The notes beneath the pieces are model-generated. The model ran no database searches. It was not told where the DNA came from and was given only the letters and a program-made list of their open reading frames with translations. Shown in pieces: positions 1,120 to 16,750 of a stretch of 64,000 nt of DNA. The DNA is from Chloroflexota bacterium. GTDB taxonomy: Bacteria; Chloroflexota; Dehalococcoidia; SZUA-161; SpSt-899. Numbering within the stretch: the first letter of the stretch is position 1; the number at the start of each line of letters is the position of its first letter. Position numbers and translations under genes: made by a program. The stretch covers positions 4,515 through 68,514 of the forward strand of contig JABMQN010000275.1 in assembly GCA_013203045.1 (NCBI GenBank), read 5' to 3'.

Positions 1120-1779
1120 CTATAAAGATATAATTCCTTTTCGTAAAGCAAATCGAATAAGATCAGTTTTGTTACGCAGCCCGAGTTTGCTCATGGCATT
1201 GGACCTGTGTGCCTCTGCCGTTCGAGGACTAATACACAACTGATCAGCAATTTCAACACGATCATATCCGATTGCAGTGAGTTCGAATATTTCCTTTTCT
1301 CTTGAAGTAAGGATATCCCATGCATCAGATAACGGAATGTTTAGAGACAATCTATCATTACAATAATTTATTACATTTTTTCTATTTTTGAACTTTGTAA
1401 TATCCTGAGAGATCACCTGGATAGCAAACACTTTCCCGTTGTCGTCTATTAACGGTTGAGCCATAGACGAGAACCATCGAGTTCCCGATGATAATTCAAT
1501 CGCATCTTCGTACTGTTGGCCAATCCCGCGCTCGGTTAACATGCGATTCCTGATGCGTAGTTCGTCTGCCAAACTCGGAAGTAGATCATATAGTGATGTT
1601 CCCCAAAAACTACTGTTGGCATGCCTCAAATTACGGGTTGTAAATTCGTTCATAAATAGAAAACGGCCATCAGTGGCATAGTACACCATCGGCATGTTTG
1701 CATTTTCCAGTAATTTTCTGTGTTTTTCGCTGTTTTGCGGTTGTTTCTCTTCCGTGCTTGGTTGATTCTTGTTTGCCAT
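1120..1779 (-). CDS. PAS-domain LuxR-family (GerE HTH) transcriptional regulator
   Basis: The C-terminus LTSREKEIFELTAIGYDRVEIADQLCISPRTAEAHRSNAMSKLG is a LuxR HTH. A PAS-like region precedes it. Start chosen at MANKNQ (1779), which has an AAGGGAG RBS; the track ORF extends to 1941. Confidence 0.65.
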   Translation of the reverse strand: MANKNQPSTEEKQPQNSEKHRKLLENANMPMVYYATDGRFLFMNEFTTRNLRHANSSFWGTSLYDLLPSLADELRIRNRMLTERGIGQQYEDAIELSSGTRWFSSMAQPLIDDNGKVFAIQVISQDITKFKNRKNVINYCNDRLSLNIPLSDAWDILTSREKEIFELTAIGYDRVEIADQLCISPRTAEAHRSNAMSKLGLRNKTDLIRFALRKGIISL

Positions 1780-2041
1780 TTTAGACTCCCTTTCAGCCTG
1801 TGAAATAACCTTAAATGGATCGATTGCGAAGAGTATCGCATACGATGCAATGTCTGTCAATTTGCTGCTATGGCATACGCTCTCTATAGATATATCCCAG
1901 CAGTGATTAACTCTTAGATTCTGTAAGTATTTTCTAGCCAATACCTCGGTGTTGACAAAAGTAGTTATGCTTATTAGACTTTTCAGTAATTAATTATCCC
2001 AAGATTATGGCTGCTCAATGCGGATAAAGTAAGGAGGTCAA

Positions 2042-2327: not shown

Positions 2328-2906
2328 TCACGATAAAACACGGACTCCAAATTCTTTTAAACTATCTGCTACTGCATTCAATGGCAACCCTACAACATTA
2401 GAATAATCGCCTTCTATCCGTTCCACAATCACGCCGCCCAATCCTTGGATAGCATATGCTCCTGCCTTGCCAATTGACTCTTTTGTAGCTATATATGCTT
2501 CGATATCCTCACGGGACATATCCCTCATGTGCACCGTGGTCTCCACGGAGTCAGTTACTACTTTGGTAGCATCTGTATCCAGAATAGTGAAACCAGTGAT
2601 CACCAAATGGTCTTTCCCATTCAATATTGTCAACATTTCCCTCGCTTCACTATCCGTTCCCGGCTTACCGAGAATTTTATCGCCCAGAACGATAAAAGTA
2701 TCAGCCGCAATGATGATTGCGTCTGTATGATTTTTGGCCACAACCTGTGCTTTTTCGAGGGAAAGTGATTTTGCCAATTCGTGCGGAGAGAGATCAGGAT
2801 TCACTTGTTCGTCATGATTGCTCGATTCTATAACAAACTGCAGCCCGATTTGCTCCAACAATTCTTTTCTTCTCGGCGATGCCGATGCCAACACAATCTT
2901 CTTCAT
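2328..2906 (-). CDS. maf: Maf-like nucleoside triphosphate pyrophosphatase
   Basis: 192 aa. The start MKKIVLASASPRRKELLEQIGL and the body are a full-length match to the Maf family. Confidence 0.9.
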   Translation of the reverse strand: MKKIVLASASPRRKELLEQIGLQFVIESSNHDEQVNPDLSPHELAKSLSLEKAQVVAKNHTDAIIIAADTFIVLGDKILGKPGTDSEAREMLTILNGKDHLVITGFTILDTDATKVVTDSVETTVHMRDMSREDIEAYIATKESIGKAGAYAIQGLGGVIVERIEGDYSNVVGLPLNAVADSLKEFGVRVLS

Positions 2907-4261
2907 AACTTGATGCTCTTTCTCACCCGCCCTGCTACTTCTCTGGCACTCTCTGCCGCTGCGGATGTCCCACCAGATCCTAACTCTTGTACACCATCGC
3001 CCACATTAAAAAGATTCTCAACAGGTGTCTCACGTGGTATACGTACACGCCCGGGTTGAGGCAAATCCTGAAACACCACCTCAAATTTAATTATCTTACC
3101 GGACTTATCGTATTCGGGGAACTGATCTTTTAAATCCAACGTCGTCTGCTCCAATTCTTCATCAAGATTCACCGTTTCAAGATATGACGGCGGTGATCCC
3201 ACGCAGTAAAGCAAATGCTTTCCTATTGGAGCAAGATCACGTGAAAAGTTGGTCAGAGGAAATGCGGATGTCAATCTGCGCAATCCAATGAGCAGAGCGC
3301 CTCCCAGTTCTCCATCCTCCAAACAGAGTGGCCTGTCACTGGCAACATGCACCAGAATCATGCCAACCGGATTGAGCTTACTCACAAGGTCCAGATAATC
3401 CTTATCGAGGCTCTCAGCACCAACCAGTTGGACCGTGTTCTTTGGACCCACATTGCTGATCACTACTCGGCTGGGTATTTTTATTTCTGCGCCATTTTTC
3501 TCAATTATAATCCCCTTTGCTACACCATTTTTCACAATGATCCGCTTAGCCGGGCAACCGACCCAAATATCACCTCCATTTTTCTCAATTATAATCCCCT
3601 TTGCTAGCGATTTCATATTTTCTTCATTACCCTGCGGAGAGATTCCTAGTGCAGCGTACGTACCCATTCCAGCAAAAAGAGCGAACATCTCAGACGCCGT
3701 GACTTCATAGGTATGATAGCTAGTCACGTTGCACACCATAGAATCGAAAGTCTTGTGTGCCATTTCGTTTTCCGTATATTTTGCTAGCCAATCCCGAAAT
3801 GTGATGTCGTCCGCTTTTTCTTCACCACGAACTCCACGCCCAAAAAAATTCATGACTTTCCCAACAGCCACCTCTTTGGCCATATGTCCCAGCAGTTTCG
3901 CTCGGTTCGTTTCCAAGCTATTGGCAATATCCAGCATCGCTGGTATCGCTCCTTTAGCTGGCATTTCATAATTTTCCCCTTCGATGCTTCCAATTCGATA
4001 AAACTGGTGAGGCATATCAACAAGGTCCAGTTTCGCACCAACCTCCCTGTAAATCTCTTCAAAAGCCCCGCCGCGGTGGAGAGCAACAGCCCCAGTCGAT
4101 AGCTTGAAGCCTTCTACTTCTTCAGTAGAGCATCGGCCACCCAGACGGTCCGTACTTTCGACAACCAGTGTTTTGTATCCCCAATGCGATAGCAACACCG
4201 CCGCGCATAATCCTCCCACTCCAGCACCAATTACTACAACATCATATTCCCTATCCATCAT
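2903..4261 (-). CDS. FAD-dependent oxidoreductase, phytoene-desaturase (CrtI)-like family
   Basis: N-terminal dinucleotide-binding motif YDVVVIGAGVGGLCAA..LVVES..LGGR. 452 aa. A 4-nt overlap with maf suggests an operon. Confidence 0.75.
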   Translation of the reverse strand: MMDREYDVVVIGAGVGGLCAAVLLSHWGYKTLVVESTDRLGGRCSTEEVEGFKLSTGAVALHRGGAFEEIYREVGAKLDLVDMPHQFYRIGSIEGENYEMPAKGAIPAMLDIANSLETNRAKLLGHMAKEVAVGKVMNFFGRGVRGEEKADDITFRDWLAKYTENEMAHKTFDSMVCNVTSYHTYEVTASEMFALFAGMGTYAALGISPQGNEENMKSLAKGIIIEKNGGDIWVGCPAKRIIVKNGVAKGIIIEKNGAEIKIPSRVVISNVGPKNTVQLVGAESLDKDYLDLVSKLNPVGMILVHVASDRPLCLEDGELGGALLIGLRRLTSAFPLTNFSRDLAPIGKHLLYCVGSPPSYLETVNLDEELEQTTLDLKDQFPEYDKSGKIIKFEVVFQDLPQPGRVRIPRETPVENLFNVGDGVQELGSGGTSAAAESAREVAGRVRKSIKL

Positions 4262-4440: not shown

Positions 4441-5481
4441 ATGATAAACTTGAGTAACAAACTCTGGATCCATTTTCTCCTTATTATTGCCATGCTGTCG
4501 CTATTGATGATTGGATGTAATGATGTAATGAGGAAGACACAACTGAAGCCGTACCAACCCAACCAATCCCCACGGCAACAGTCAGATCAGGCGAAACAGC
4601 AGCCCCAACGCCAACTGTGACAGCAACAATACCTGACACTACAGATACACCCACGGTATCTCCGACACCGACATCAACTATTCCAAATGAGCCCCTCACT
4701 TCCACCATCGTTTCTGATTGATTTTGACTCTTTCACATCATCGAATGACGTTTCCTCGGTTATTCCAGACGGTATGGAGCAGCAATTCCAATTCGCTTCA
4801 TTCAGTCCATCAGATGATGTGACGTCACCTTTTACCACGGCTGTCTTTGGTGATAACTCCTACTGGAATCATGCGGCTTTCAATGTTGGTTTCTGGAGCA
4901 TTGTTGTAGTAGTAGGTTTGGCAGTACCAGTGGCAGCATTTGTGGCATCTTTCCATAATATTCCGTACCAACAAGATGATGGATCGTGGATATGGTCATA
5001 CGACGTCCCAGTTGCAGGTGTCAAACACACCGCTGAGCTTCACGGAATATACATCGATAATGGGGTCCGTTGGGAAATGTACGTTACCAAAGCAGGAGAT
5101 TATACGGATTTCCTCTGGTATTATGGGGAATCCGATCGACCCGGCACGGAAGGCTTTTGGATTCTGAAGGAGAGTCCTACAAAGAACCACGATCTGCTAC
5201 AGATTGACTGGCACCGTAATATAGCCGATGGCACTGGATACATCAAATACACCAACATAGTTCCCGGCGGCCCTGAGAATGGTGGCTATATTCAGGTTGA
5301 GACCACCACTCAAACACCTTACGACTCCTTCTGGGATATCTATAACAAGGGCCAGGATAATCATACATATATCGACTGGCGCAGTAAAAGTCAGGAAGGA
5401 CGTGTGAAGGATCAGAAACGTTTCGCCGCCGACAACTGGCATTGCTGGGACGGTGACCATCGGAATATAGTTTGCCCGTAA
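4441..5481 (+). pseudogene. lipoprotein gene apparently disrupted: signal peptide (frame 1), TP-rich linker (frame 3), globular C-terminal domain (frame 1, 4687..5481)
   Basis: 4441.. encodes MINLSNKLWIHFLLIIAMLSLLMIGCN, a lipobox. From ~4530 an alternative frame reads EEDTTEAVPTQPIPTATV...PTPTSTIP, a linker like those of the other lipoproteins here. From 4687 a 264-aa domain of unknown function is open. An in-frame TGA sits at 4618..4620. An intrinsic terminator follows at 5526..5557. Confidence 0.4.
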
Positions 5482-5557: not shown

Positions 5558-5764
5558 TCGTACTCCATGCCCCCACAAAATTTCGTGTAAGTCATAATAT
5601 GCCAGAGTCCGCTTGTACTATTGTCCAGAAGAGGCTAAAAAGGGTATAATAACTGTTTGGTGATCAAAGCGAACTAACGAGATGAAGAGGGGCTCAAGGT
5701 GAGCCCTTTCATTTTGAGTTCAGTAGAAAAGAACAACGTAAATCAAGAACACCAAGGGGGTTAA

Positions 5765-7216
5765 ATGACAGGAATTATTTCATACGGAGCATATGTCCCA
5801 TACCATCGAATAAACCGAAAAACCATTTTCGGCGCGATGGGTTGGCTGGACGCAGCCACTAATGTAAAGGGCGAAAAGGCCATCTGCAACTACGATGAAG
5901 ACACTGTCACCATGGCAGTAACGGCCGGTATCCACTGTCTCAAGAATGTGGATCGGGGCAAGGTCGATGGTGTGTACTTGGCCACTATCAGTTCTCCCGC
6001 CGTCGAAAGGCAGGCAGCCGGAACAGTTGCCTCAGCGCTGGACATGGAAGGCAATATACGTTCGGCCGATTTCTCTGGTTCCACCAAGGTGGGAACCGCC
6101 GCAATTGTCGCAGCCTGTGATGCCGTCAAGGCCGGATCACTCAGTAACGTTCTGGCCTGTGCCTCGGATTCCCGCACCGGAAAACCCGGAAGTGGTGATG
6201 AACAGAATTACGGAGATGCCAGTACCGCTTTTCTCATTGGAAACGACGGCGTGATCGCTGAGATAGCAGGTTCGCATTCGGTTTCCTACGACTTCATGGG
6301 TCACTGGGAAGGAGATACGGATGACTACGGTCACTTCTGGGAAGCCCGCTGGATAACAGACGAAGGCTACAATCCCCATCTGATTGAAGCGGCCAAAGGC
6401 GTCCTCAAGCAATGCAGCGTGGAAATCGACGGCATCTCAAAAGTCATTATTCCGTCCATTAATGCCAGAGCCGCCAAAATTGTTGCCAAGAAACTCAAAC
6501 TCGCTGATGAGCAGGTTCAGACTCCTGTGTTCGATATGGTTGGCGATTGCGGCAATGCCCAGTCACCGCTCATGCTTGCGGCGGCTTTGGACGAAGCCAA
6601 GCCGGGAGACAAAATCCTGGTCTTAAGTTACGGAAACGGCGCGGATGCGATTCTCATCGAGGCCACCGAGGCCATCACCGGTTTCACTCCGGCCAAGACA
6701 GTATCAAAAATGCTGGAAACCAAACGTGAAATCACCAACTACAACCAGTACCTCGTCTTCCGCGAAGTACTGCCTGTCGAGACCGGTATTCGTGGTGAAG
6801 AACTTGATGCCGCTCCCACGCAGGTTGCCCGATTGTGGAGAGAGCGAAAAGAGATCATGGCGCTCTGCGGTTCCAAGTGTAAGAAGTGCGGCACTCCGCA
6901 GTATCCTTTCCAGAAGGTATGCGTGAACCCGGATTGCGGCGCTATTGATGAGGGAGAGTGGTACCGCTTCTCCGATAAGAAAGGGAAACTCTTTACCTAC
7001 ACTGTCGATAGCCTTGCTTTCACTTTCAACCCGCCACAGGTATATGGCGTCATCGAGTGGGAAGGCGGTGGAAAATTCTGGTTTGATATCTCCGATTGTG
7101 ATCCGGATAATCTTGAAGTTGGTATGGAGATGGAAATGTCTTTCCGCCGCAAATATCACGATAAATGGCGAGGACTTTCCGCATATTTCTGGAAGGCAAT
7201 CCCTGTACTCGACTAA
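5765..7216 (+). CDS. HMG-CoA-synthase-like thiolase-fold protein fused to a C-terminal DUF35 zinc-ribbon/OB-fold domain
   Basis: The N-terminal 350 aa align to HMGCS/initiation-condensing enzymes (GVYLATIS..., VLACASDSRTG, GDASTAFLIG). The C-terminus has CxxC...CxxC (CGSKCKKCG..CVNPDCG) plus an OB fold typical of DUF35. The track ORF is 483 aa. Where HMGCS has NACYGGTAAL, this protein reads GSTKVGTAAI, so the Cys nucleophile appears replaced by Thr. Confidence 0.75.
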   Translation: MTGIISYGAYVPYHRINRKTIFGAMGWLDAATNVKGEKAICNYDEDTVTMAVTAGIHCLKNVDRGKVDGVYLATISSPAVERQAAGTVASALDMEGNIRSADFSGSTKVGTAAIVAACDAVKAGSLSNVLACASDSRTGKPGSGDEQNYGDASTAFLIGNDGVIAEIAGSHSVSYDFMGHWEGDTDDYGHFWEARWITDEGYNPHLIEAAKGVLKQCSVEIDGISKVIIPSINARAAKIVAKKLKLADEQVQTPVFDMVGDCGNAQSPLMLAAALDEAKPGDKILVLSYGNGADAILIEATEAITGFTPAKTVSKMLETKREITNYNQYLVFREVLPVETGIRGEELDAAPTQVARLWRERKEIMALCGSKCKKCGTPQYPFQKVCVNPDCGAIDEGEWYRFSDKKGKLFTYTVDSLAFTFNPPQVYGVIEWEGGGKFWFDISDCDPDNLEVGMEMEMSFRRKYHDKWRGLSAYFWKAIPVLD

Positions 7217-7233
7217 CAGGAGGACAAACGAAA

Positions 7234-8442
7234 ATGGCTGATGGAATTAGAGATAAAGTTGCAATTATCGGAATGGGCTGCACCAAATTCGGTGAGCACT
7301 GGGACAAAGCCGGCGAAGATTTGATGGTGGAAGCTTTTCAGGAATGCCTTGGTGATGCTGGCGTTGAAAAGAAGTCCATCGATGCTGCCTGGATGGGGCA
7401 TTACTTTGATGAAGTGAATGTTGGCAAAACTGCCCTCTTGATGTCCCAGGCACTGAAGCTCCCGTACATTCCGGTTACTCGCGTGGAAAATGCCTGTGCC
7501 AGCGGATCGGAATCACTGCGCGCAGCGTGCTATGCCGTTGCCTCCGGCGCCATTGATATTGGCCTGGCGATGGGTGTGGAAAAGCTCAAGGACTGTGGTT
7601 ATGGCGGTTTGCCTCAGGCAGCCATCATGTCTTTACTGGGAACCAAGAGCCGATTCGTCAATCCAAACAGAACGGCACCCGGCGGATTCGCCATGGTGGC
7701 TACCAAGTATTTTGCTCAGTATGGCCTCACTGCTGAAGAGGGTAAGCATATGATTGCTTACGTCTCATACAAGAGCCACAAGAATGCCGAGTTCAGTCCC
7801 AAGGCGCACCTTCGCAAAGGGGTATCTATTGAGCAAATCATGAAAGCCCCTATTATCGCGTGGCCGCTGGGATTGTTCGACTGTTGCGGCGTCAGTGATG
7901 GCGCGGCTTGTGCCATTGTTTGCCGAGCGGAAGATGCCAAGAATTTCCAGGCTGATCCCATATATGTGAAGGCGATGCAAATCGGCATCAGTTCCGGTGA
8001 AGAGATGATGTACAACAACTGGGATAACGCTCATATCGAAACCACTGTTCGTATAGCACAGAAGGCATATAAAGAAGCTGGAATCACCAATGCGCGCGAG
8101 GAGATCAGCGTGGCGGAAGTGCACGACTGCTTCTCGATTACCGAAGCGGTGACTATGGAAGACCTGCAATTTAGCCCGAGAGGCAAAGTGAGAGAGGATA
8201 TCGAGTCGGGCTTCTTCGATTTGGATGGCGGACTCCCGGTTCAGCCTGATGGCGGACTGAAATGCTTCGGGCATCCCATCGGCGCTTCGGGACTGCGCAT
8301 GATGTACGAAATCTATAAACAGCTTCAGGGCAAGGCGCAGACACAAGAGCGCCAGATCAAGGATCCAAAACTCGGCCTGACACACAACATGGGCGGCGTT
8401 CCCGCGGCCAATGTTTCCAGTGTGATGATTGTAGGGAGATAG
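7234..8442 (+). CDS. SCP-x-type thiolase (acetyl-CoA acetyltransferase family, DUF35-partner class)
   Basis: Catalytic Cys in VENACASGSESLRAA, His in GHPIGASGLRMMYE, and an HNMGG C-terminal motif. Start ATG at 7234 is preceded by AGGAGG; the track ORF extends to 7165. Confidence 0.85.
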   Translation: MADGIRDKVAIIGMGCTKFGEHWDKAGEDLMVEAFQECLGDAGVEKKSIDAAWMGHYFDEVNVGKTALLMSQALKLPYIPVTRVENACASGSESLRAACYAVASGAIDIGLAMGVEKLKDCGYGGLPQAAIMSLLGTKSRFVNPNRTAPGGFAMVATKYFAQYGLTAEEGKHMIAYVSYKSHKNAEFSPKAHLRKGVSIEQIMKAPIIAWPLGLFDCCGVSDGAACAIVCRAEDAKNFQADPIYVKAMQIGISSGEEMMYNNWDNAHIETTVRIAQKAYKEAGITNAREEISVAEVHDCFSITEAVTMEDLQFSPRGKVREDIESGFFDLDGGLPVQPDGGLKCFGHPIGASGLRMMYEIYKQLQGKAQTQERQIKDPKLGLTHNMGGVPAANVSSVMIVGR

Positions 8443-8655
8443 ATTGTTAAGTCCGTTCGTATTGAGTCCAGTCGAAGTACGAGCGGGTTAATGTTCACCC
8501 TTCGACAAGCTCAGGGCGAACGAATGAAAAGTGCAGGAATTTTCTTGCCGGGGGTTTGCGGGGGTGTCCCCCGCTCCTCTTCTTCCCCCAAGAGTGGGGG
8601 ACAGGGGGTTGGTCCGAACCGGGTAGAATATTGATAAAACAAAGGAGGCTTTAAA

Positions 8656-9414
8656 ATGGCAACATTAGGAAAACTTGTTGAAGGAAAAGTAGCTATCGTC
8701 ACCGGTTCCAGCCGGGGTATTGGGCGAGCCATCGCTCTTAAACTGGCTGAGTGCGGCGCTGATGTAGCTATCAATTACTCGAAGAGCGCAGACGCGGCTA
8801 AGGAAGTCGCTGCTCAGATCGAGGGAATGGGCCGCAAATGCCTGGTTGTTCAGGCGGATGTATCCAGCTTTGCTGATGCTCAAAAGATGGTTGATGAAGT
8901 AGTTGAAAAGTTGGGAACCCTAGATATTATGGTTTGCAACGCCGGCATCAATAAAGACGGTGTTATTTGGAAAATGACCGAGGAGCAGTGGGATCAGGTA
9001 ATTGATGTTAACCTGAAAGGTTATTTCAATTATTGCAGAGCCGCAATTCCTGTCTTCCGCGAAAAGCAATACGGCAAGATCGTGAATATTGCTTCCATCA
9101 ACGGACTGCGCGGCAAGTTCGGCCAATCCAACTACACTGCAGCCAAAGGTGGAATCATAGCTTTCACCAAGACCATGGCTCGTGATTTGGGCAATAAGAA
9201 TATTAATTGTAACGTGGTTGCTCCCGGCCTTATCGCCACCGAAATGGTTCAGGCGATGGACGAGGAAGCCAAGGACAAATCACGCAAAGAGATCATCCTG
9301 GGACGTATCGGAGAACCTGAAGAAGTGGCCAACGTGGTTGCCTTCCTTGCCTCTGATTTTGCCAGTCATATCACAGGGCAGACCCTCAATGTGGATGGCG
9401 GCCAACTGATGTAA
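8656..9414 (+). CDS. short-chain dehydrogenase/reductase (FabG-like 3-oxoacyl reductase)
   Basis: TGSSRGIGRAIA glycine motif, NAG, and a YxxxK (NYTAAK) catalytic tetrad. 252 aa. Confidence 0.9.
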   Translation: MATLGKLVEGKVAIVTGSSRGIGRAIALKLAECGADVAINYSKSADAAKEVAAQIEGMGRKCLVVQADVSSFADAQKMVDEVVEKLGTLDIMVCNAGINKDGVIWKMTEEQWDQVIDVNLKGYFNYCRAAIPVFREKQYGKIVNIASINGLRGKFGQSNYTAAKGGIIAFTKTMARDLGNKNINCNVVAPGLIATEMVQAMDEEAKDKSRKEIILGRIGEPEEVANVVAFLASDFASHITGQTLNVDGGQLM

Positions 9415-9524
9415 TAATTGCCACTAAGGCACGAAGACACGAAAAATATAGAAAGTCTTCTTAATTTTTAAAGCTTGGTGCCTTAGAGCCTTAGTGGCTG
9501 AATTTATAACTAAGGAGTTTGAAA

Positions 9525-10427
9525 ATGGGAGACAGACTGAAAGGCCGAGTGGCCGTGATTTCCGGTTCCAGCATGGGAATCGGCCGGGCGCTGGCCGTCG
9601 ATATGGCCAAAGAAGGCGCTGACATCATTGTCAATGCCCGTAACGTGGACAAATGCAAAGAGGTCGTTGCTGAAATCGAAGCGCTGGGACAGAAGGCTGT
9701 AGCAGTTGCTGCCGATATCTCCATCAAGGAACAGGCGGAAAACCTGATCAATGCCGCGGTAGAGAATTTCGGCAAGATCGATATTCTGGTCAACAATGCC
9801 GGTTTCTTAAAAGACCGTATGCTCTGGAAGATGTCCGATGAGGAATACGACGATATTATGAAGGTCTTCATTTACGGGTACTTCTACTGCCTGCGCCGTG
9901 CCGGTACCCTGATGAGAGATAATGGCTATGGCAGGATCATCAACATGTCCTCCCGCGTTGCTCTCGGGAACGTGGGACAGGTCAATTATGGTACCGCCAA
10001 AACCGGTATTCTGGGGATGACCCGCTGTGCCGCCCGTGACTTGGGAAGAAAGAGCATAACCGTCAATACCATTTTCCCCGGAGCTGCCAGCCGCTTAACA
10101 ACGACCACGGAGGTTATGGATAGCAAACAGAAGCGGACGGAAAAGGATATAACCACTACCGCCAAGATCGGTGACCAGCTGGAAGAACCCGAGTGCTTCA
10201 CACCGTTCATAACCTGGCTTTGCAGTGAAGAGGCCGCCAATGTTAATGGCCAGACTTTCTTCGTACGCGGACGCCAGATCAGCAAGTACTCCGCCGCACC
10301 AGTTATGGAGGGCACTATTTATGCTCCTAATGAAGGCTGGACAGTTGACGAGGTAGCAGAGTTGTTCCCGAAGACTTTGGGTGAAGGCATTGTCAATCCG
10401 GCACCACCCCAGCCACCGAAAGAATAG
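9525..10427 (+). CDS. short-chain dehydrogenase/reductase with ~50-aa C-terminal extension
   Basis: ISGSSMGIGRALA, NNAG, and YGTAK. The start is likely MGDRLKGRVAV at 9525. Confidence 0.85.
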   Translation: MGDRLKGRVAVISGSSMGIGRALAVDMAKEGADIIVNARNVDKCKEVVAEIEALGQKAVAVAADISIKEQAENLINAAVENFGKIDILVNNAGFLKDRMLWKMSDEEYDDIMKVFIYGYFYCLRRAGTLMRDNGYGRIINMSSRVALGNVGQVNYGTAKTGILGMTRCAARDLGRKSITVNTIFPGAASRLTTTTEVMDSKQKRTEKDITTTAKIGDQLEEPECFTPFITWLCSEEAANVNGQTFFVRGRQISKYSAAPVMEGTIYAPNEGWTVDEVAELFPKTLGEGIVNPAPPQPPKE

Positions 10428-10595
10428 ATACTGGAAGATCTTTCTGAAATTTATCAAACCTCCCTTCGGTAAACCGTGGGGAGTTTTTAAATTAGATGGT
10501 GTCATTCTGAAGGAGCAACGTGACTGAAGAATCTCCATTGCAGGAAAAGAGATTCTTCGCTACGCTCAGAATGACAATTCAACTCTGGTAACGAA

Positions 10596-11381
10596 ATGAC
10601 CGACCGACTCAAAAACAAAGTAGCCATTATAACCGGCTCCGGTTCCGAATACGGGATCGGGAGGGCGACTGCTCTGCTCTTTGCCAAAGAAGGGGCAAAA
10701 GTAGTGGTTGCCGATATCAACGAGGAAGCTTCCAGGGCGGTGGTCACGGAAATCAAAGATGCCAGGGGAACAGCCATTCAGATTCCTACAGACGTCACCG
10801 AAGTAAGTCAGGTAAAACGTATGGTCAAAGGTGCCATCCGATCATTCGGAACTATCGATATTCTGGTGAACACCGCGGCTAACTATCGTGATAAATCCAT
10901 CCTGAAGATGACCGAACAGGATTTCCACGAAATCATTGATGTTTGCCTCAATGGCGCCTTTTATTGTACCAAGTATGCCGTCGAATACATGATAGCTGCG
11001 GCCAGAAACGAGGCCAAAGAGGGTAATCCGGTTCCCTGCCGCAAGATTATTCACTTCACTTCGGGAGCCGGACTGCGGGGTAATCCGGGTCAGGCCAACT
11101 ACAGCGCAGCCAAAGCGGGAATCATTGGACTTGCCAAATCGAATGCCAAGGAATTCGCTCGATATAATATCACCGTCAATGCCATCTCTCCGTTCGCGTT
11201 GACCCCCCTAACAGACCTGATGCCGGATGATCTTAAAGAAACATTTGAGACCAAGGTCCCACTGGGACGCTGGGGTGACCCTGAAAAGGATATCACCCCT
11301 GTTGCTTTGTTCCTGGCTTCAGAGGATTCCAATTACATTACCGGACAGGTCATTATTGCCAGTGGTGGTTTGGATATTTAG
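10596..11381 (+). CDS. short-chain dehydrogenase/reductase
   Basis: ITGSGSEYGIGRATA, NTAA, and YSAAK motifs. 261 aa. Confidence 0.85.
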   Translation: MTDRLKNKVAIITGSGSEYGIGRATALLFAKEGAKVVVADINEEASRAVVTEIKDARGTAIQIPTDVTEVSQVKRMVKGAIRSFGTIDILVNTAANYRDKSILKMTEQDFHEIIDVCLNGAFYCTKYAVEYMIAAARNEAKEGNPVPCRKIIHFTSGAGLRGNPGQANYSAAKAGIIGLAKSNAKEFARYNITVNAISPFALTPLTDLMPDDLKETFETKVPLGRWGDPEKDITPVALFLASEDSNYITGQVIIASGGLDI

Positions 11382-11569
11382 GCGGTTGTGTTGGCCCTCC
11401 GCTTGCGTGTACTTCTTTTGTCCTGTATGCTTATATCAGTGGTTTAATAAAGGTTACCAGTTCCACAGGCACCCCCTGGACTTCCCCTTAAGGGCTTTTC
11501 AAGGCAAGGTTCTAAAAGATATTGGATGACCGGAATTGAGTTCACAATACTTGAAAAGGAGGTCATTCA

Positions 11570-11866
11570 ATGAGTTTCACTGATAGAGAACTGCAATGCG
11601 CCGATTGTGGAGCAACGTTCACCTTTAGTGCTAACGAGCAGGAGTTCTTTGCCGAGAAGGGTTTCACCAACGATCCCAAACGCTGTCCTGACTGTCGTTC
11701 AGCCAGAAAGATGGAACGTGGTGACAGGCGTGGTCCCAGGCAAATGTACCCGGCCGTATGCGCCGAATGTGGTATCGATACCGAAGTGCCGTTCCTGCCC
11801 AAACAAGACAGGCCGGTATATTGCAGCCAGTGCTATAATAGCGTTGGCTCTGCAAGCAGGCGATAG
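11570..11866 (+). CDS. zinc-ribbon domain protein (zf-trcl-like, two CxxC pairs x2)
   Basis: MSFTDRELQCADCGATFTFSANEQEFFAEKGFTNDPKRCPDCR ... CAECG...CSQCY is the characteristic probable-zinc-ribbon family. An AAGGAGG RBS sits upstream. Confidence 0.7.
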   Translation: MSFTDRELQCADCGATFTFSANEQEFFAEKGFTNDPKRCPDCRSARKMERGDRRGPRQMYPAVCAECGIDTEVPFLPKQDRPVYCSQCYNSVGSASRR

Positions 11867-11985
11867 CCTCAAACACAACAAAGTGATGAAAGAGAGGCCG
11901 GGGCCAGTTTCCGGTCTCTCTTTTATGATATCATTGATGCAGGAGTGAGAGCCTGTGGACAACAGATTCTTTTGAGGAGGTTATC

Positions 11986-12351
11986 ATCACCAATAAGATT
12001 TTTGTAGGAAATCTGAATTTCGAAACGATGCGAAGCGATATCGAAGGTCTTTTTGCTCAGTCTGGCGGTGTTATTGACGTATCAATCCCAACCGACCGGG
12101 ATACCGGTCGTCCAAGAGGATTCGCTTTTGTGGAATTTGTCGATGAACCATCTGCCATGAAAGCTATCGAAATGTTCGATGGGTATGATCTGCAGGGCAG
12201 GACGCTTCGAGTGAATCTGGCAGAAAAGCAACAGCAGCGCCCTCGTAGCTTTAGCGATTCCGGTCCATCTGGTGGGGGGTATCAAGGTTCGCGCGGTTCC
12301 AAACCAAAGGGCAGTCGCCGTAATATTCGTGCTCAAAAACGTGGGTATTGA
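11986..12351 (+). CDS. RNA-binding protein, RRM domain (RNP-2 IFVGNL, RNP-1 RGFAFVEF) with Gly/Arg-rich tail
   Basis: The first ATG (12028) lies downstream of the RNP-2 motif KIFVGNLNF, which is encoded in-frame at 11995..12021. A strong GAGGAGG at 11974..11980 points to a non-canonical start (ATC/ATT) near 11986; see findings. Confidence 0.7.
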   Translation: MTNKIFVGNLNFETMRSDIEGLFAQSGGVIDVSIPTDRDTGRPRGFAFVEFVDEPSAMKAIEMFDGYDLQGRTLRVNLAEKQQQRPRSFSDSGPSGGGYQGSRGSKPKGSRRNIRAQKRGY

Positions 12352-12391
12352 AGATTTGCTCAAATGAGATATCCCAGACGTCCCGATGTGA

Positions 12392-12425
12392 AAACAGGCT
12401 GACCGGAAGGTCGCCTGTTTTTTTG
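12392..12425 (+). terminator. rho-independent terminator after RRM gene
   Basis: ACAGGCtgaccggaaggtcGCCTGT followed by TTTTTTT. Confidence 0.75.
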
Positions 12426-12715
12426 TTAATCGGGTTTTTAAATTACTAGCGCTGTGCATCAAGTGACAGGCATACCGATTTACCATTACTCTGGCAATTA
12501 AATATTGTTAGAATAACGAGCTCTATCTTAATATTAATGACTCTCGCGAAGCCGCTAAGATCGCAAAGAAGTGAAAATACAAACTTTACGTTCATTGCGT
12601 CTTAGCGAGGAAATATGAACTCCAGCAGCAAAACGTGGAGGGGTGGGAGGACTGACAGCCGACAAATGATAGCTGACAGCACACTAGATGCCGGCACCGA
12701 TTTGCGAGTTACCGT

Positions 12716-12743
12716 TTTCGAACACCTTCCATCTTTGTTATAA
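12716..12743 (+). promoter_or_regulatory. sigma70-like promoter candidate for SDR gene at 12769
   Basis: TTCGAA - 16 nt - TATAAT. A GAAGGAGG RBS and the ATG at 12769 lie downstream. Confidence 0.45.
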
Positions 12744-12768
12744 TTTTCATGACTTGAAGGAGGTAATA

Positions 12769-13566
12769 ATGGGAACACTTGATGGGAAAGTAGCAGTGAT
12801 TACAGGTTCCGGCCGAGGTATCGGCAAAGAAACTGCCAGAATATTTGCCCGCGAGGGCGCCAGCGTGGTGATAAATGATGTGGATGAAGCTGTGGCTGCT
12901 GAAGCGGTTAAAGACCTTGAGGCCGAAGGCGGAACAGCGGCCTATTGCGTTGCCGATATACGCCAACTTGAAGAAGCCAAGAAACTGATGAAAACAGCCG
13001 TTGATGAGTTTGGCAAACTGGATATCCTGGTCAATAACGCCGGGATCGCCCGGGATACACTTGCCGGAAGGATGAGCGAGGAGCAATGGCAACTGGTCAT
13101 CGATATCAATCTGACAGGCACTTTCAACTGCATCCGGGCAGCATCCAAATATATGATGAAGAAAAGCCATGGCGGAAGAGTGATAAACATCTCTTCTGTA
13201 GTTGGTTTGGCAGGAAACATGGGACAGATCAATTATGCGGCCTCAAAAGCTGGCATTATCGGCATGACAAAAACTCTTGCCCGCGAATGGATGCGTTATG
13301 GCGTGACGGTCAACGCGGTCGCTTTCGGCGGTGTGGATACTCGATTCACCGCGGTAAAAGATGCTTCAGAAGAGGCTTTTGGCGAAAAGATCGGCATTCC
13401 GGAAAAGGCCCGTGAGGGGATGGTGGAACGGATGGAGACGCAGACCATTTTTGGCGGGATGACTACTCCAGAGCAGGCTGCTCAGTGTATCTACCTTTTA
13501 GCCCTTGATGAGGCTTCCTACATCACTGGTAACGTTTTGAATGCTACCGGTGGGTTGTACATGTAA
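12769..13566 (+). CDS. short-chain dehydrogenase/reductase
   Basis: MGTLDGKVAVITGSGRGIGKETA, NNAG, and YAASK motifs. A GGAGG RBS sits upstream; the track ORF started further upstream at 12688. Confidence 0.85.
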   Translation: MGTLDGKVAVITGSGRGIGKETARIFAREGASVVINDVDEAVAAEAVKDLEAEGGTAAYCVADIRQLEEAKKLMKTAVDEFGKLDILVNNAGIARDTLAGRMSEEQWQLVIDINLTGTFNCIRAASKYMMKKSHGGRVINISSVVGLAGNMGQINYAASKAGIIGMTKTLAREWMRYGVTVNAVAFGGVDTRFTAVKDASEEAFGEKIGIPEKAREGMVERMETQTIFGGMTTPEQAAQCIYLLALDEASYITGNVLNATGGLYM

Positions 13567-13567
13567 A

Positions 13568-13610
13568 ATAAAAGGGCGGGTTTTCAAACCCGCCCTTTAA
13601 CCTTCTTTTA
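13568..13610. terminator. bidirectional intrinsic terminator between convergent SDR (+) and GNAT (-) genes
   Basis: AAAGGGCGGGTTTtcaaAACCCGCCCTTT is a perfect 13-bp stem flanked by A/T runs on both sides. Confidence 0.7.
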
Positions 13611-15064: not shown

Positions 15065-16228
15065 TCAAATACGTCGTTTCGATTCCTCAAGGATCGGCAG
15101 GAAAACATTGCGTTCATTAGGCTTCATCTGAATCACATCATCCGGACAATGCAATGCACATAATCCACAGCCGCAGCACATTTCCGAGTTTATCACGGCA
15201 ATACCTTCCTCGCCAACTGCAATCGCGCTGACAGGACAGTACTCTTCGCATGTGCCGCATCCGGTGCAAGCATCCGGATCAACAATATTGGCAATATAAT
15301 ACGCTTTCAGCATAAATGGGATGATCCCTCGATTATAGTTACCAAAAGCTGCGCAGCAATCCCAGCAACAATTGCACAGGATATCAACATCATACTTGGC
15401 ATTGAAATCCTTGAGCGGCATGAGCCTGCCGACCTGGTGAATGCACCCTTTTTGCTGGTATTCCTTAATAAGCCGAATCGCCTCCTCTTTAGTAATACGG
15501 CGCGCAATGCCACGATTGATCAAGTGCTCTGCCGCAGGACCCAAAGCCATGCAGCTTTCATATGGGAGATGCTGCCTGCACGGGTCCCCATCCACCCTAC
15601 GATGTTCCCGGCAAAAGCAATGACTGAGAGTGATCACTTCGTCTTCGTCCAGCTTCTCAAAAATGTTAAGAATACTATGAGCCGGGTAGATCTCATTTAC
15701 GTCCGGGCGTACAGCCTCTTGAACAGGTATGATCTTGGAACCATCCGGATTCACCACGGCCAGGGAACGATGGGGGGCTACGTCCTGCATGACCTCGTTG
15801 ATGATCTCAGGGGGAATGGCCTTAGCCGCATTAAAGAAGGTAATGAGGCGTTTGCAAAATTCCTGTCTATCCGGCGTATTGGCTCCTCTCATTATATACA
15901 TTTCGAACCAGCCCGGGAAGATGGACATTAAATGGTAAATAGGCTCAGTATCACCCTCTGCCGGTGATGGCTGAGCGATATGGGTTTTATCCAGCAGGAT
16001 ATTGAATATACGATCGAACTCCTCTTTAGTAAGGCTAACTCGCTCTTCTATATCCGCACGTGTCCTGTTCCCGCCACCCATTTTGAGAAGGAAATCGACC
16101 TCCTCCGGTTCCAGCGCCGGATCGAAGACGTATAGCAGGTCATCCGTAACCATGGTAGGTGCTTCGGACTGTTCATTCATCAGGTTTGCCAGTTCCGCCA
16201 GCTTGTCCTTATTATTCTTGAATTCCAT
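15065..16228 (-). CDS. Cys-rich iron-sulfur protein with C-terminal 2x[4Fe-4S] ferredoxin domain (paralog of 21661..22632)
   Basis: CTGCGTCEEYCP and CCGCGLCALHCP are two CxxCxxCxxxCP motifs. An unusual cluster LCNCCWDCCAAFG is also present. The N-terminal ~250 aa are of unknown function. Confidence 0.6.
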   Translation of the reverse strand: MEFKNNKDKLAELANLMNEQSEAPTMVTDDLLYVFDPALEPEEVDFLLKMGGGNRTRADIEERVSLTKEEFDRIFNILLDKTHIAQPSPAEGDTEPIYHLMSIFPGWFEMYIMRGANTPDRQEFCKRLITFFNAAKAIPPEIINEVMQDVAPHRSLAVVNPDGSKIIPVQEAVRPDVNEIYPAHSILNIFEKLDEDEVITLSHCFCREHRRVDGDPCRQHLPYESCMALGPAAEHLINRGIARRITKEEAIRLIKEYQQKGCIHQVGRLMPLKDFNAKYDVDILCNCCWDCCAAFGNYNRGIIPFMLKAYYIANIVDPDACTGCGTCEEYCPVSAIAVGEEGIAVINSEMCCGCGLCALHCPDDVIQMKPNERNVFLPILEESKRRI

Positions 16229-16282: not shown

Positions 16283-16750
16283 CTACGTGATAGGTTCTAT
16301 GCTTACCCCACGCTCGACTGCTTTTTCCTGATATGAAGTGTACGTTTGAGTGACTTTTCCCCCCGTACTACCGGCAAGAAGATGGTTTGTTAAAATTGCC
16401 AGATCCCAGTATTCACGCCACACCGCAATCTTGCCATCACATATCACAAATGAATCCATCACTGGAACCATAACAGAACTGCCGTCTTTCAGGAAAGTCA
16501 GCTCTTCGCGTTCGAGTAATACAATGTCACCTTCCCCGACTATGTTGAGCAGCTTTCCTTCAAAATGATCGCACATATCTCGATAGGCATCAAGGATAGC
16601 ATAGATTTCATCTGGTCCCTGAACTGAAGGGCCTTTATCACATCGGTTCTCGTAAATTGCATCTTCTGTGAACCACTCCCGCGCCATGTCAGGAGTAAGG
16701 ATATACCACTCTAATGCGCAACGAGTGGTAAGGTCTTTGTTAGCCGACAT
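16283..16750 (-). CDS. NTF2-like / SnoaL-fold protein (limonene-epoxide-hydrolase-like size and fold)
   Basis: 155 aa with an alpha+beta cone-fold signature (EWYILTPDMAREWFTEDAIYEN...) and no other domains. Confidence 0.5.
   Translation of the reverse strand: MSANKDLTTRCALEWYILTPDMAREWFTEDAIYENRCDKGPSVQGPDEIYAILDAYRDMCDHFEGKLLNIVGEGDIVLLEREELTFLKDGSSVMVPVMDSFVICDGKIAVWREYWDLAILTNHLLAGSTGGKVTQTYTSYQEKAVERGVSIEPIT

What the first reader, a model, noticed from the sequence alone, without database searches (positions are those of the whole stretch)
5765..13566. HMGCS-like/DUF35 fusion apparently lacking the Cys nucleophile, next to a canonical SCP-x thiolase and a run of four SDRs
The 483-aa protein aligns to HMG-CoA synthases through the ASD..R and GDAS regions. 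Where HMGCS has NACYGGTAAL, it reads GSTKVGTAAI, so the acyl-enzyme Cys appears replaced by Thr. A DUF35 Zn-ribbon/OB domain is fused at the C-terminus. The adjacent thiolase keeps its Cys (NACASGS). This resembles thiolase/HMGCS/DUF35 channeling complexes and the Ltp2-DUF35 aldolases of steroid side-chain cleavage. The HMGCS-like subunit may be a non-catalytic scaffold or may have a changed chemistry. Four SDR genes, a zinc-ribbon gene and an RRM gene follow in the same orientation.
Basis: partly seen in the sequence, partly recalled or inferred. Interest (0 to 1): 0.6.

Follow-up and report, generated by a model that had tools for sequence, protein, structure and literature searches.

The report
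Dead HMG-CoA-synthase scaffold beside active thiolase
The gene really does encode an HMG-CoA-synthase look-alike that has lost its catalytic residues and is fused to a zinc-ribbon/OB domain, but this is a widespread and recently described type of inactive partner for the neighbouring thiolase, most likely working in fatty-acid-style breakdown, so it is a new member of a known kind.

Summary
ORF 5765-7216 encodes a 483-aa HMGCS-like domain fused to a DUF35 zinc-ribbon/OB domain. The HMGCS nucleophile Cys is Thr107 here. The other three residues of the E-C-H-N tetrad are also lost (Ile75, Pro230, Asp261).

The loss is a family trait, not a local accident. None of the 120 closest homologues or the 150 representatives of 50%-identity clusters has Cys, Glu or His at those positions.

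The next gene, 7234-8442, is an SCP2-type thiolase with Cys88, HDCF and GHP. These residues are invariant in 77 of 77 partner thiolases. This thiolase follows the fusion directly in 66 of 70 related loci that have room for it.

Related loci are rich in beta-oxidation genes. A recurrent order is fusion, thiolase, MaoC, MaoC, SDR, SDR, ACAD, ACAD. Some relatives carry SDR and SCP2 domains fused onto the same protein.

The architecture is already published. PhlA lacks the Cys and Glu (2018). Liao et al. (Nat Commun 2026) characterised a fused, tetrad-less HMGS-DUF35/ACAT complex from Pseudomonas fluorescens that only carries out thiolysis, and they mined about 1,000 such loci.

The modest added value is the beta-oxidation context.

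The parts
5621..5650 (+). Promoter-like site (TTGTCC-18-TATAAT, 10 of 12) about 115 bp upstream of the fusion gene. Weak evidence only.
   Evidence: The number of promoter-like sites in the region is no higher than in shuffled sequence.
5765..7216 (+). Gene for the 483-aa fusion protein: a catalytically dead HMGCS-like domain, a linker, and a DUF35 zinc-ribbon/OB-fold domain.
5765..6772 (+). HMGCS-like thiolase-fold domain (aa 1-336). The E-C-H-N tetrad is replaced by I75 (5987-5989), T107 (6083-6085), P230 (6452-6454) and D261 (6545-6547).
   Evidence: Fold match to 6et9_I has TM 0.92.
6773..6868 (+). Flexible linker (aa 337-368). Low pLDDT, and the least conserved part of the protein.
   Evidence: pLDDT below 50 for 339-356 and 361-368. 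(26% mean identity, against 36% and 40% for the two domains).
6869..7213 (+). DUF35 module: a zinc ribbon with Cys372, Cys375, Cys386 and Cys391, then an OB fold ending in the conserved Y474-x-W476-K477 motif.
   Evidence: Best solved relative is 6esq_E (1.8e-18).
7234..8442 (+). SCP2-type thiolase, 402 aa, the inferred sole catalytic subunit. It has Cys88 (7495-7497), H297-D-C-F (8122-8133) and G346-H-P (8269-8277).
   Evidence: NCBIfam PRK06157, 613 bits against a 403 cut-off; 6esq_A, 7e-63. It is adjacent to the fusion in 66 of 70 related loci.
8656..9414 (+). SDR1, FabG-like, 252 aa, catalytic motifs intact. Inferred 3-hydroxyacyl-CoA dehydrogenase or 3-oxoacyl-CoA reductase.
   Evidence: (TIGR01830 298.8 bits against a 297.75 cut-off).
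9525..10427 (+). SDR2, about 300 aa with a C-terminal extension (PRK07792/PRK07791-like), catalytic motifs intact.
10596..11381 (+). SDR3, 261 aa, with an insertion in the Gly motif. About 42% identical to the SDR cluster that accompanies fusion-thiolase operons elsewhere.
11570..11866 (+). Treble-clef zinc-finger protein (zf_Tbcl plus zf_Tbcl_2). It is conserved next to the locus only in the closest relative and is probably not part of the enzyme system.
11983..12351 (+). RRM RNA-binding protein. The true N-terminus (IFVGNL) lies upstream of ATG 12028. Probably unrelated to the enzyme system.
12769..13566 (+). SDR4, 265 aa from Met28 of the listed ORF, catalytic motifs intact. It is the window's closest match to the family-associated SDR cluster (42-43% identity).
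13571..13598 (.). 12-bp GC-rich hairpin between SDR4 and the convergent GNAT gene. Likely a bidirectional terminator marking the end of the + strand run.

Best explanation
The locus encodes a two-gene thiolase complex descended from the archaeal thiolase/HMG-CoA-synthase/DUF35 complex. The SCP2-type thiolase (7234-8442; Cys88, HDCF, GHP) is the only catalytic subunit. The 483-aa protein is a pseudo-enzyme. Its HMGCS-like domain keeps the fold but has lost the entire Glu-Cys-His-Asn tetrad, and its C-terminus is the zinc-ribbon/OB DUF35 module that bridges thiolase and HMGCS dimers in the solved complexes.

By analogy, the fusion protein holds the thiolase in a soluble, active hetero-oligomer and probably contributes to the shared CoA-binding chamber. 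The reaction is thiolytic cleavage of 3-oxoacyl-CoA, the last step of a beta-oxidation-type breakdown. The flanking SDRs most likely supply the preceding 3-hydroxyacyl-CoA dehydrogenase step. The substrate is unknown.

Shown here: domain architecture, loss of the tetrad across the whole family, intact thiolase motifs, gene adjacency, and the beta-oxidation neighbourhoods of relatives.

Inferred: complex formation, the direction of the reaction, and the role of the SDRs.
For: 1. Tetrad loss in this protein, in all 120 closest homologues and in all 150 representatives of 50%-identity clusters. The nucleophile column reads L, Q, T, P, R, M, A or V, which means no replacement catalytic residue has been selected.

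2. Despite this, the dead domain is conserved. It shows 36% mean identity to the query over 148 representatives, against 40% for DUF35 and 26% for the linker. The fold is intact.

3. The thiolase starts less than 200 bp downstream on the same strand in 66 of 70 loci with room for it. Its C88, H297-D-C-F and G-H-P are invariant in 77 of 77 partners. It is also more conserved than the fusion (55-83% against 42-78% identity).

4. All three modules find their best solved relatives in 6ESQ.

5. 57 of 78 related loci have at least one beta-oxidation-type gene within 6 kb: ACAD in 30, SDR in 27, AMP-ligase in 19, a MaoC pair in 18, ECH in 14, CoA-transferase III in 11, plus ETF. The order fusion-thiolase-MaoC-MaoC-SDR-(SDR)-ACAD-ACAD recurs.

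6. The same pairing occurs in cultured degraders: SDR-MaoC-fusion-thiolase in Sphingomonas, and AMP-ligase ... fusion-thiolase-ECH-ACAD in Rhodococcus.

7. Natural longer fusions exist: dead-HMGS-DUF35-SDR-SCP2 (P0125), the same with SDR only (P0191), and the same with two SCP2 domains (P0126). P0125 sits between an MFE-2-like gene and a thiolase.

8. Published biochemistry supports the model. The P. fluorescens fused HMGS-DUF35/ACAT complex makes neither HMG-CoA nor acetoacetyl-CoA but does thiolyse acetoacetyl-CoA. A tetrad-mutant archaeal complex is dead for HMG-CoA. MucB alone is insoluble or inactive (PMC12960953). PhlA and PhlB are structural (PMC6392133).
Against: - There is no direct evidence here that the two window proteins form a complex or what they cleave.
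- The window itself has no acyl-CoA dehydrogenase, hydratase or CoA-ligase next to the pair, and no ACAD, MaoC, ECH or HBD anywhere in its 64 kb. A complete beta-oxidation cycle is therefore not encoded locally.
- Gaps of 100-420 bp and hairpins separate the SDR genes from the pair, so co-transcription is unproven.
- The exact SDR run is conserved only in close relatives.
- SDR1 just passes the FabG model cut-off, which is compatible with a reductive role.
- Sequence relatedness to the characterised P. fluorescens protein itself was not tested.
Confidence: 0.75

Rival explanations
1. The system runs in the biosynthetic direction. The thiolase/DUF35 scaffold and the adjacent SDRs would form an ACP-independent chain-elongation (reverse beta-oxidation or archaeal-FAS-like) assembly. 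The SDRs would act as 3-oxoacyl-CoA reductases that pull the unfavourable Claisen condensation forward.
For: [quoted passage not shown]
- SDR1 scores just above the FabG equivalog cut-off.
- The window has SDRs but no ACAD next to the pair.
- SDR domains are fused to the scaffold in some relatives.
Against: - Related loci are dominated by ACAD (often in pairs), ETF and AMP-ligase or CoA-transferase genes, which are typical of degradation.
- The characterised P. fluorescens complex gave thiolysis but no acetoacetyl-CoA from acetyl-CoA.
- No enoyl-CoA reductase is present in the locus.
Confidence: 0.12
2. The HMGCS-like domain has acquired a new chemistry, for example Thr107 or another residue acting as nucleophile or base, or a non-covalent aldol or decarboxylase activity.
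For: The domain is conserved and full length across hundreds of lineages. Several residues shared with true HMGCS are kept, including D44-E45-D46, D102, E146 and R195.
Against: All four tetrad positions vary freely within the family. The nucleophile column is mostly Leu in the wider family and is never Cys. The conserved residues are ones also conserved in true HMGCS for structure or CoA contacts. Tetrad mutation abolishes activity in the archaeal enzyme.
Confidence: 0.03
3. It is a Friedel-Crafts-type C-acyltransferase like PhlACB or MucABC, acting on a small-molecule acceptor.
For: It has the same three-module architecture and the same dead HMGS-like subunit. PhlA and MucA are the second and third best structural matches.
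Against: Those acyltransferases have lost the HDxF motif of the thiolase. Here HDCF is present, and it is invariant in 77 of 77 partners. No PKS or NRPS is nearby. PhlC is a much weaker match to the thiolase than archaeal ACAT (7e-22 against 7e-63).
Confidence: 0.03
4. It is a genuine HMG-CoA synthase of a mevalonate pathway, as several source databases annotate its relatives.
For: The source annotation 'hydroxymethylglutaryl-CoA synthase' appears on many homologues. The best NCBIfam hit is PRK04262.
Against: The score is below every HMGCS model cut-off (207 against 244; 153 against 353). Glu, Cys, His and Asn are all absent. No mevalonate-pathway genes lie in the neighbourhood.
Confidence: 0.01

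Closest known systems
PfACAT/HMGS-DUF35 complex of Pseudomonas fluorescens, and the roughly 1,000 bacterial HMGS+ACAT+DUF35 loci mined by Liao et al., Nat Commun 2026 (PMC12960953)
   Same: HMGS-like domain fused to DUF35. E-C-H-N tetrad lost. Adjacent ACAT keeps the Cys, HDxF and GHx motifs. No PKS or NRPS nearby. Their complex performs thiolysis only.
   Different: Direct sequence relatedness to the Pseudomonas protein was not tested here. The host is an uncultured Dehalococcoidia/Chloroflexi MAG. The local partners are four SDRs. That paper calls the class an 'evolutionary intermediate' not yet recruited to a pathway, whereas the neighbourhoods analysed here point to beta-oxidation modules.
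[quoted passage not shown]
   Same: It is the best solved relative of all three modules: HMGCS 8e-32 with TM 0.92, DUF35 1.8e-18, thiolase 7e-63. The thiolase has the same Cys, HDCF and GHx motifs.
   Different: The HMGCS tetrad (E82, C114, H238, N270) is replaced by I, T, P and D. DUF35 is fused rather than separate. There is no mevalonate context. The product cannot be HMG-CoA.
PhlACB (Pseudomonas protegens) and MucABC (Streptococcus macacae) Friedel-Crafts acyltransferases (PDB 5M3K, 5MG5, 9VBO)
   Same: The HMGS-like subunit (PhlA or MucA) lacks the catalytic residues and is structural. Only the thiolase-like subunit is catalytic. DUF35 bridges the dimers.
   Different: Their thiolase subunit has lost HDxF and been remodelled for small-molecule acceptors. 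DUF35 is a separate protein. They sit in PKS or NRPS clusters.
BbsAB benzoylsuccinyl-CoA thiolase with the BbsCD SDR dehydrogenase (anaerobic toluene pathway, PDB 7PXP)
   Same: A DUF35 zinc-finger subunit plus an SCP2-type thiolase with HDxF, followed by SDR genes, within a modified beta-oxidation. BbsB matches the window thiolase at 3e-41.
   Different: It has no HMGS-like module. The window thiolase scores 151 bits against a 750-bit cut-off for the BbsB model. There are no bbsEFGH-type genes here.
Sulfolobus acidocaldarius ketothiolase/DUF35 + SDR + MaoC fatty-acid synthase complex (bioRxiv 10.1101/2024.07.05.601840)
   Same: A DUF35-mediated assembly of an SCP2-type thiolase with an SDR and a MaoC enzyme. 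The same gene families neighbour the fusion family.
   Different: It has no HMGS-like domain and runs biosynthetically with an enoyl-CoA reductase. Its DUF35 clade is reported to be restricted to archaea.
Ltp2-ChsH2(DUF35) and Sal-Shy steroid side-chain aldolases (PDB 6OK1)
   Same: A thiolase-fold protein docked to a DUF35 domain that is fused to another (MaoC) domain, acting on bulky acyl-CoA substrates.
   Different: Ltp2 and Sal are retro-aldolases in which the thiolase catalytic residues have been repurposed. Here the thiolase motifs are complete. The DUF35 match is weak (4e-3 against 1.8e-18 for 6esq_E).

Membership tests
Bacterial ACAT/HMGS-DUF35 thiolase complexes (Liao et al. 2026 class) | HMGS-like domain and DUF35 domain in one polypeptide | tested here: met
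   The HMGS-like part spans 1-336 and the DUF35 part spans 354-482.
Bacterial ACAT/HMGS-DUF35 thiolase complexes (Liao et al. 2026 class) | HMGS E-C-H-N tetrad absent | tested here: met
   The positions are I75, T107, P230 and D261. The tetrad is absent across the family.
Bacterial ACAT/HMGS-DUF35 thiolase complexes (Liao et al. 2026 class) | Adjacent ACAT retains the catalytic Cys (CxS), HDxF and GHx | tested here: met
   C88-A-S, H297-D-C-F and G-H347-P. Invariant in 77 of 77 partner thiolases.
Bacterial ACAT/HMGS-DUF35 thiolase complexes (Liao et al. 2026 class) | No adjacent PKS/NRPS machinery | tested here: met
   Pfam scans of neighbours from 318 to 33271.
Bacterial ACAT/HMGS-DUF35 thiolase complexes (Liao et al. 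2026 class) | Forms a hetero-oligomer that thiolyses 3-oxoacyl-CoA and makes no HMG-CoA | not testable with these tools
   Needs protein biochemistry. This is inferred from PMC12960953.
Bacterial ACAT/HMGS-DUF35 thiolase complexes (Liao et al. 2026 class) | Sequence homology to the characterised P. fluorescens HMGS-DUF35 | not tested
Relatives in Gammaproteobacteria and Pseudomonadota at 48-50% identity make homology likely.
HMG-CoA synthase (archaeal type, NCBIfam PRK04262 / TIGR00748) | Score at or above the curated cut-off | tested here: not met
   207.3 against 244, and 153.5 against 353.
HMG-CoA synthase (archaeal type, NCBIfam PRK04262 / TIGR00748) | Catalytic Glu, Cys and His | tested here: not met
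PhlACB/MucABC Friedel-Crafts acyltransferases | Thiolase subunit lacks HDxF and has a remodelled acceptor pocket | tested here: not met
   HDCF is present.
PhlACB/MucABC Friedel-Crafts acyltransferases | HMGS-like subunit lacks the catalytic residues | tested here: met
SCP2-type (SCP-x) thiolase, NCBIfam PRK06157 | Score at or above the curated cut-off, with CxS, HDCF and GHP fingerprints | tested here: met
   613.3 against 403. Motifs.
BbsAB benzoylsuccinyl-CoA thiolase | BbsB equivalog score of at least 750 | tested here: not met
   150.9 bits.
Ltp2/Sal steroid side-chain retro-aldolases | Thiolase-fold subunit without thiolase chemistry; DUF35 fused to a MaoC hydratase | tested here: not met
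   The thiolase motifs are complete. DUF35 is fused to an HMGS-like domain.

The most novel reading that the evidence does not exclude
The dead HMGS-DUF35 protein may be more than a vestigial solubility partner. It could be the organising hub of a bacterial beta-oxidation metabolon that mirrors the peroxisomal MFE-2/SCPx system. In this reading it docks the SCP2-type thiolase together with SDR-type hydroxyacyl-CoA dehydrogenases (in the window, SDR1-4), and in relatives also with MaoC hydratases and SCP2 lipid-binding domains, and it channels bulky or branched acyl-CoA intermediates through the former HMGCS/CoA chamber.

The support is indirect. There are natural fusions that add SDR and SCP2 domains to the scaffold. 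The operon fusion-thiolase-MaoC-MaoC-SDR-SDR-ACAD-ACAD recurs. The archaeal DUF35-mediated FAS complex is a precedent.
Probability: 0.25. Interest if true: 0.55.

Novelty: new member of a known kind. Interest (0 to 1): 0.3.

Why it matters
Public annotation of this large family is split between 'hydroxymethylglutaryl-CoA synthase', 'OB-fold domain-containing protein' and '3-oxoacyl-ACP synthase III C-terminal domain'. The first name is wrong for these proteins and could lead to false predictions of a mevalonate pathway in Dehalococcoidia, sulfate reducers and alkane-oxidising archaea.

Recognising the pair as a pseudo-enzyme-scaffolded thiolase embedded in beta-oxidation modules gives a testable role for a class that its only biochemical study left as an 'evolutionary intermediate'. 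It also marks a likely route for degrading fatty, branched or hydrocarbon-derived acyl-CoAs in abundant subsurface bacteria.

It does not open a new category of biology.

Tried and rejected
- Cys132 of 'LACASD' as an alternative nucleophile. It aligns to a core beta-strand (Ile of MAIGAD), and it is not conserved outside the close clade.
- A compensating Cys near the site. About 25 of the 150 representatives have a Cys two residues downstream (S-L-R-C-G-T). The query clade has K-V/A-G-T, so this is not a family feature.
- The search for related loci with the diverse alignment A2 failed because no stretch was conserved enough. The closer alignment A1 was used instead.
- The Vogeli et al. 2018 paper (PMC5879682) is not held, so conservation of its CoA-contact residues could not be checked one by one.
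- No supplementary files are held for PMC12960953, so the P. fluorescens sequence could not be compared.
- A literature search for Dehalococcoidia together with HMGCS and thiolase found nothing.
- Promoter and terminator scans were no better than shuffled sequence, so operon boundaries remain uncertain.
- A search of the window for ACAD, MaoC, ECH, HBD, CoA-transferase and ETF homologues of the family's usual neighbours found none.
- The first MAFFT run timed out and was repeated with faster settings.

Full report
**What is there.** The + strand between 5765 and 13566 carries the following genes:

| Coordinates | Product |
|---|---|
| 5765-7216 | 483-aa protein: HMGCS/KAS-III-like domain (aa 1-336) followed by a DUF35 module (zf-ChsH2 at 369-393, OB_ChsH2_C at 400-461) |
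| 7234-8442 | Thiolase, 402 aa. The listed ORF starts at 7165, but the 402-aa form matches relatives |
| 8656-9414, 9525-10427, 10596-11381 | Three SDR genes |
| 11570-11866 | Treble-clef zinc-finger gene |
| ends at 12351 | RRM gene |
| 12769-13566 | Fourth SDR gene |

A strong hairpin at 13571-13598 lies just before a convergent GNAT gene. An identical 483-aa protein is already in NCBI from a Chloroflexi MAG, and the closest relatives are from Dehalococcoidia.

**The missing nucleophile is real, and the loss goes further.** The best solved relative of the N-terminal domain is the HMG-CoA synthase of the Methanothermococcus thermolithotrophicus thiolase/HMGCS/DUF35 complex (6esq_I, E = 8e-32). 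In that alignment LEFACKAGTAG lies opposite FSGSTKVGTAA. Explicit alignments map the catalytic tetrad E82, C114, H238, N270 to I75, T107, P230, D261. It aligns to a core strand residue and not to the nucleophile. An AlphaFold model built on 57 homologues (pLDDT 81.7, pTM 0.87) superposes best on the archaeal complex HMGCS (TM 0.92, rmsd 1.7 A). PhlA and MucA come next, and classical MvaS and FabH follow. NCBIfam's HMGCS models all score below their cut-offs (207 against 244).

**It is a family trait.**
- A word-indexed search found 1,726 homologues. The best 120 are all fusions of about 480 aa, and none has Cys at position 107, Glu at 75 or His at 230.
- An exhaustive HMMER search of 1.84 billion cluster representatives returned 3,162 hits, 551 of them at E <= 1e-30. 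The best 150 are 31-46% identical to the query, and nearly all are full-length fusions. Again none has the Cys, Glu or His. The nucleophile column is mostly Leu, with Q, T, P, R, M, A and V also present.
- That spread argues against a newly selected catalytic residue.
- The dead domain is nevertheless conserved about as well as the DUF35 domain (36% against 40% mean identity to the query; the linker is at 26%). It is therefore maintained by selection.
- In one-genome-per-species GTDB contigs, at least 591 stretches encode a relative. They come from Dehalococcoidia, many Desulfobacterota (including Desulfosarcina alkanivorans PL12), Bacillota, Actinomycetota, Planctomycetota and Ca. Methanoliparum.
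- Cultured aerobic degraders carry it on megaplasmids: Sphingomonas, Sphingobium, Novosphingobium, Rhodococcus, Variovorax and Azoarcus. These copies have the same tetrad loss.

**The partner thiolase.** The downstream gene passes NCBIfam PRK06157 (613 bits against a 403 cut-off). Its best solved relative is the archaeal complex thiolase 6esq_A (7e-63). BbsB (3e-41) and PhlC (7e-22) lie further off. It has the SCP2-thiolase fingerprints Cys88 (NACASGS), H297-D-C-F and G-H347-P.

In the 84 related loci fetched, a homologous thiolase (55-83% identical) starts within 200 bp downstream on the same strand in 66 of the 70 loci that have room for it. Most of the remainder have one a few kb away. C88, HDCF and GHP are invariant in 77 of 77 of these partners. 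The DUF35 part is also closest to the archaeal complex subunit 6esq_E (1.8e-18). The ChsH2 DUF35 and PhlB both score about 4e-3. Its four zinc-binding Cys are nearly invariant.

**Context in relatives.** I clustered all ORFs of the related loci and annotated the recurrent clusters with Pfam. 57 of 78 loci have at least one beta-oxidation-type gene within 6 kb of the fusion:

| Neighbour | Loci |
|---|---|
| Acyl-CoA dehydrogenase (often two in tandem) | 30 |
| SDR | 27 |
| AMP-ligase | 19 |
| Pair of small MaoC hot-dog proteins | 18 |
| Crotonase (ECH) | 14 |
| Family III CoA-transferase | 11 |
| MFE-2-type hydratase | 7 |

ETF and HBD also occur. A recurrent order is fusion-thiolase-MaoC-MaoC-SDR-(SDR)-ACAD-ACAD. 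Sphingomonas paeninsulae has SDR-MaoC-fusion-thiolase. Rhodococcus qingshengii has AMP-ligase, a ring-hydroxylating dioxygenase, fusion-thiolase, ECH and ACAD.

Some family members carry extra domains on the same polypeptide. P0125 (911 aa) adds SDR and SCP2, P0191 (800 aa) adds SDR, and P0126 (722 aa) adds two SCP2 domains. P0125 sits between an MFE-2-like hydratase-SDR-SCP2 gene and a thiolase, downstream of an ACOX-like dehydrogenase.

**Context in the window.** The window's own arrangement (pair, three SDRs, zinc finger, RRM, SDR, convergent GNAT) is kept intact in a 78%-identical relative but not in more distant ones. The window has no ACAD, MaoC, ECH or HBD anywhere in its 64 kb. The four SDRs are old paralogues, 35-40% identical to each other, and all have intact YxxxK and glycine motifs. 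SDR3 and SDR4 are the closest to the SDR cluster that travels with the family (42-43% identity).

**What is known.** Three published systems bear directly on this locus.
- Pavkov-Keller et al. (PMC6392133) showed that PhlA of the PhlACB acyltransferase lacks the HMGCS Cys (Gly115) and Glu (Cys83). Only PhlC Cys88 is catalytic, and PhlA and PhlB are needed for assembly.
- Liao et al. (PMC12960953) solved MucABC and showed that a tetrad-mutant archaeal complex no longer makes HMG-CoA. They mined 1,030 bacterial HMGS+ACAT+DUF35 loci, 1,001 of them without secondary-metabolism genes. They then characterised a P. fluorescens complex with a fused HMGS-DUF35 lacking E-C-H-N and an ACAT retaining Cys, HDxF and GHx. 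That complex makes no HMG-CoA or acetoacetyl-CoA but thiolyses acetoacetyl-CoA. They describe it as an evolutionary intermediate not yet recruited to a pathway.
- The S. acidocaldarius work (bioRxiv 10.1101/2024.07.05.601840) shows that a thiolase/DUF35 pair can recruit an SDR and a MaoC enzyme into one complex.

**Most likely mechanism.** The thiolase is the sole catalyst. The fusion protein is a pseudo-enzyme scaffold inherited from the archaeal-type complex. Its DUF35 module bridges the thiolase and HMGS-like dimers, and its HMGS-like domain probably still forms one wall of the shared CoA chamber. The reaction is thiolysis of a 3-oxoacyl-CoA within a beta-oxidation-type pathway. The SDRs probably supply the dehydrogenase step.

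Shown here: the architecture, the loss of catalytic residues, conservation, adjacency and context. Inferred: assembly, direction of the reaction, SDR involvement and substrate. I put 0.75 on this explanation. The main rival is a reductive, chain-elongating role analogous to the archaeal FAS complex (0.12). New chemistry in the dead domain, a Friedel-Crafts acylase, and a true HMGCS are each at 0.03 or lower.

**Verdict.** The feature belongs to a class that is already structurally and biochemically documented, so it is a new member of a known kind and of modest interest (0.3). Three things go beyond the literature: the size and breadth of the fused family, its consistent embedding in beta-oxidation operons, and the natural fusions to SDR and SCP2 domains. 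Together these suggest the scaffold organises a larger degradative assembly. That reading is not excluded, and I give it a probability of 0.25.

Noticed in passing
window 11974-12351 (+); L001 6240-6686: The RRM gene's RNP2 strand (NKIFVGNLNFET) lies upstream of the first ATG (12028). The open frame before it has no in-frame ATG, GTG or TTG. An AGGAGG sits just before ATC-ATC at 11983-11988. The 78%-identical relative has Thr where this window has the Met, so the gene probably starts at a non-canonical codon (ATC, ATT or CTG).
   Followed up: partly
P0125 (911 aa), P0191 (800 aa), P0126 (722 aa); locus L085 3836-10192: Some family members extend the dead-HMGS-DUF35 protein with SDR and/or SCP2 domains. 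In L085 this protein sits between an MFE-2-like hydratase-SDR-SCP2 gene and the thiolase, after an ACOX-like ACAD and a TetR gene. The layout resembles the peroxisomal MFE-2/SCPx system.
   Followed up: partly
window 16808-18181 (-) and 20256-21626 (-); L001 9974-11347: Two paralogous genes encode an APH-type phosphotransferase fused to a C-terminal SCP2 lipid-binding domain. They flank a tungsten-type aldehyde:ferredoxin oxidoreductase (18260-20224) and 4Fe-4S proteins (15065-16228, 21661-22632). An APH-SCP2 gene also lies near the locus in the 78% relative.
   Followed up: no
window 16283-16750 (-), 22665-23840 (-), 23870-24673 (-): The same minus-strand block holds a SnoaL/limonene-epoxide-hydrolase-like protein, a 391-aa protein with no Pfam match, and a fifth SDR.
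   Followed up: no
window 2903-4261 (-); L008, L010, L011, L014 (between fusion and SDR): A phytoene-desaturase/amine-oxidase-like FAD protein lies divergently upstream of the fusion gene. A different FAD protein of the same superfamily sits between the fusion gene and an SDR in five related loci. No significant similarity was found between the two at E = 1e-5.
   Followed up: partly
L002/L003 10001-15356; L012; L053: Some Dehalococcoidia genomes carry two fusion-thiolase pairs in tandem. Several Desulfobacterota loci (L028, L038, L046, L048, L058) place a second thiolase with a stand-alone DUF35 directly upstream of the fusion-thiolase pair.
   Followed up: no
window 1120-1941 (-) and 25805-26752 (-): Two PAS-LuxR (GerE) regulators flank the wider region and could be local regulators.
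   Followed up: no
window 29039-30738 (+): Two adjacent PAC2-family genes (proteasome-assembly-chaperone-like).
   Followed up: no
window 32417-38906 (+): A CheR methyltransferase gene, a 219-aa ORF and a 1,659-aa ORF sit in one + strand run. The latter two were not annotated.
   Followed up: no
window 4687-5481 (+): A 264-aa ORF immediately upstream of the fusion gene has no Pfam match.
   Followed up: no
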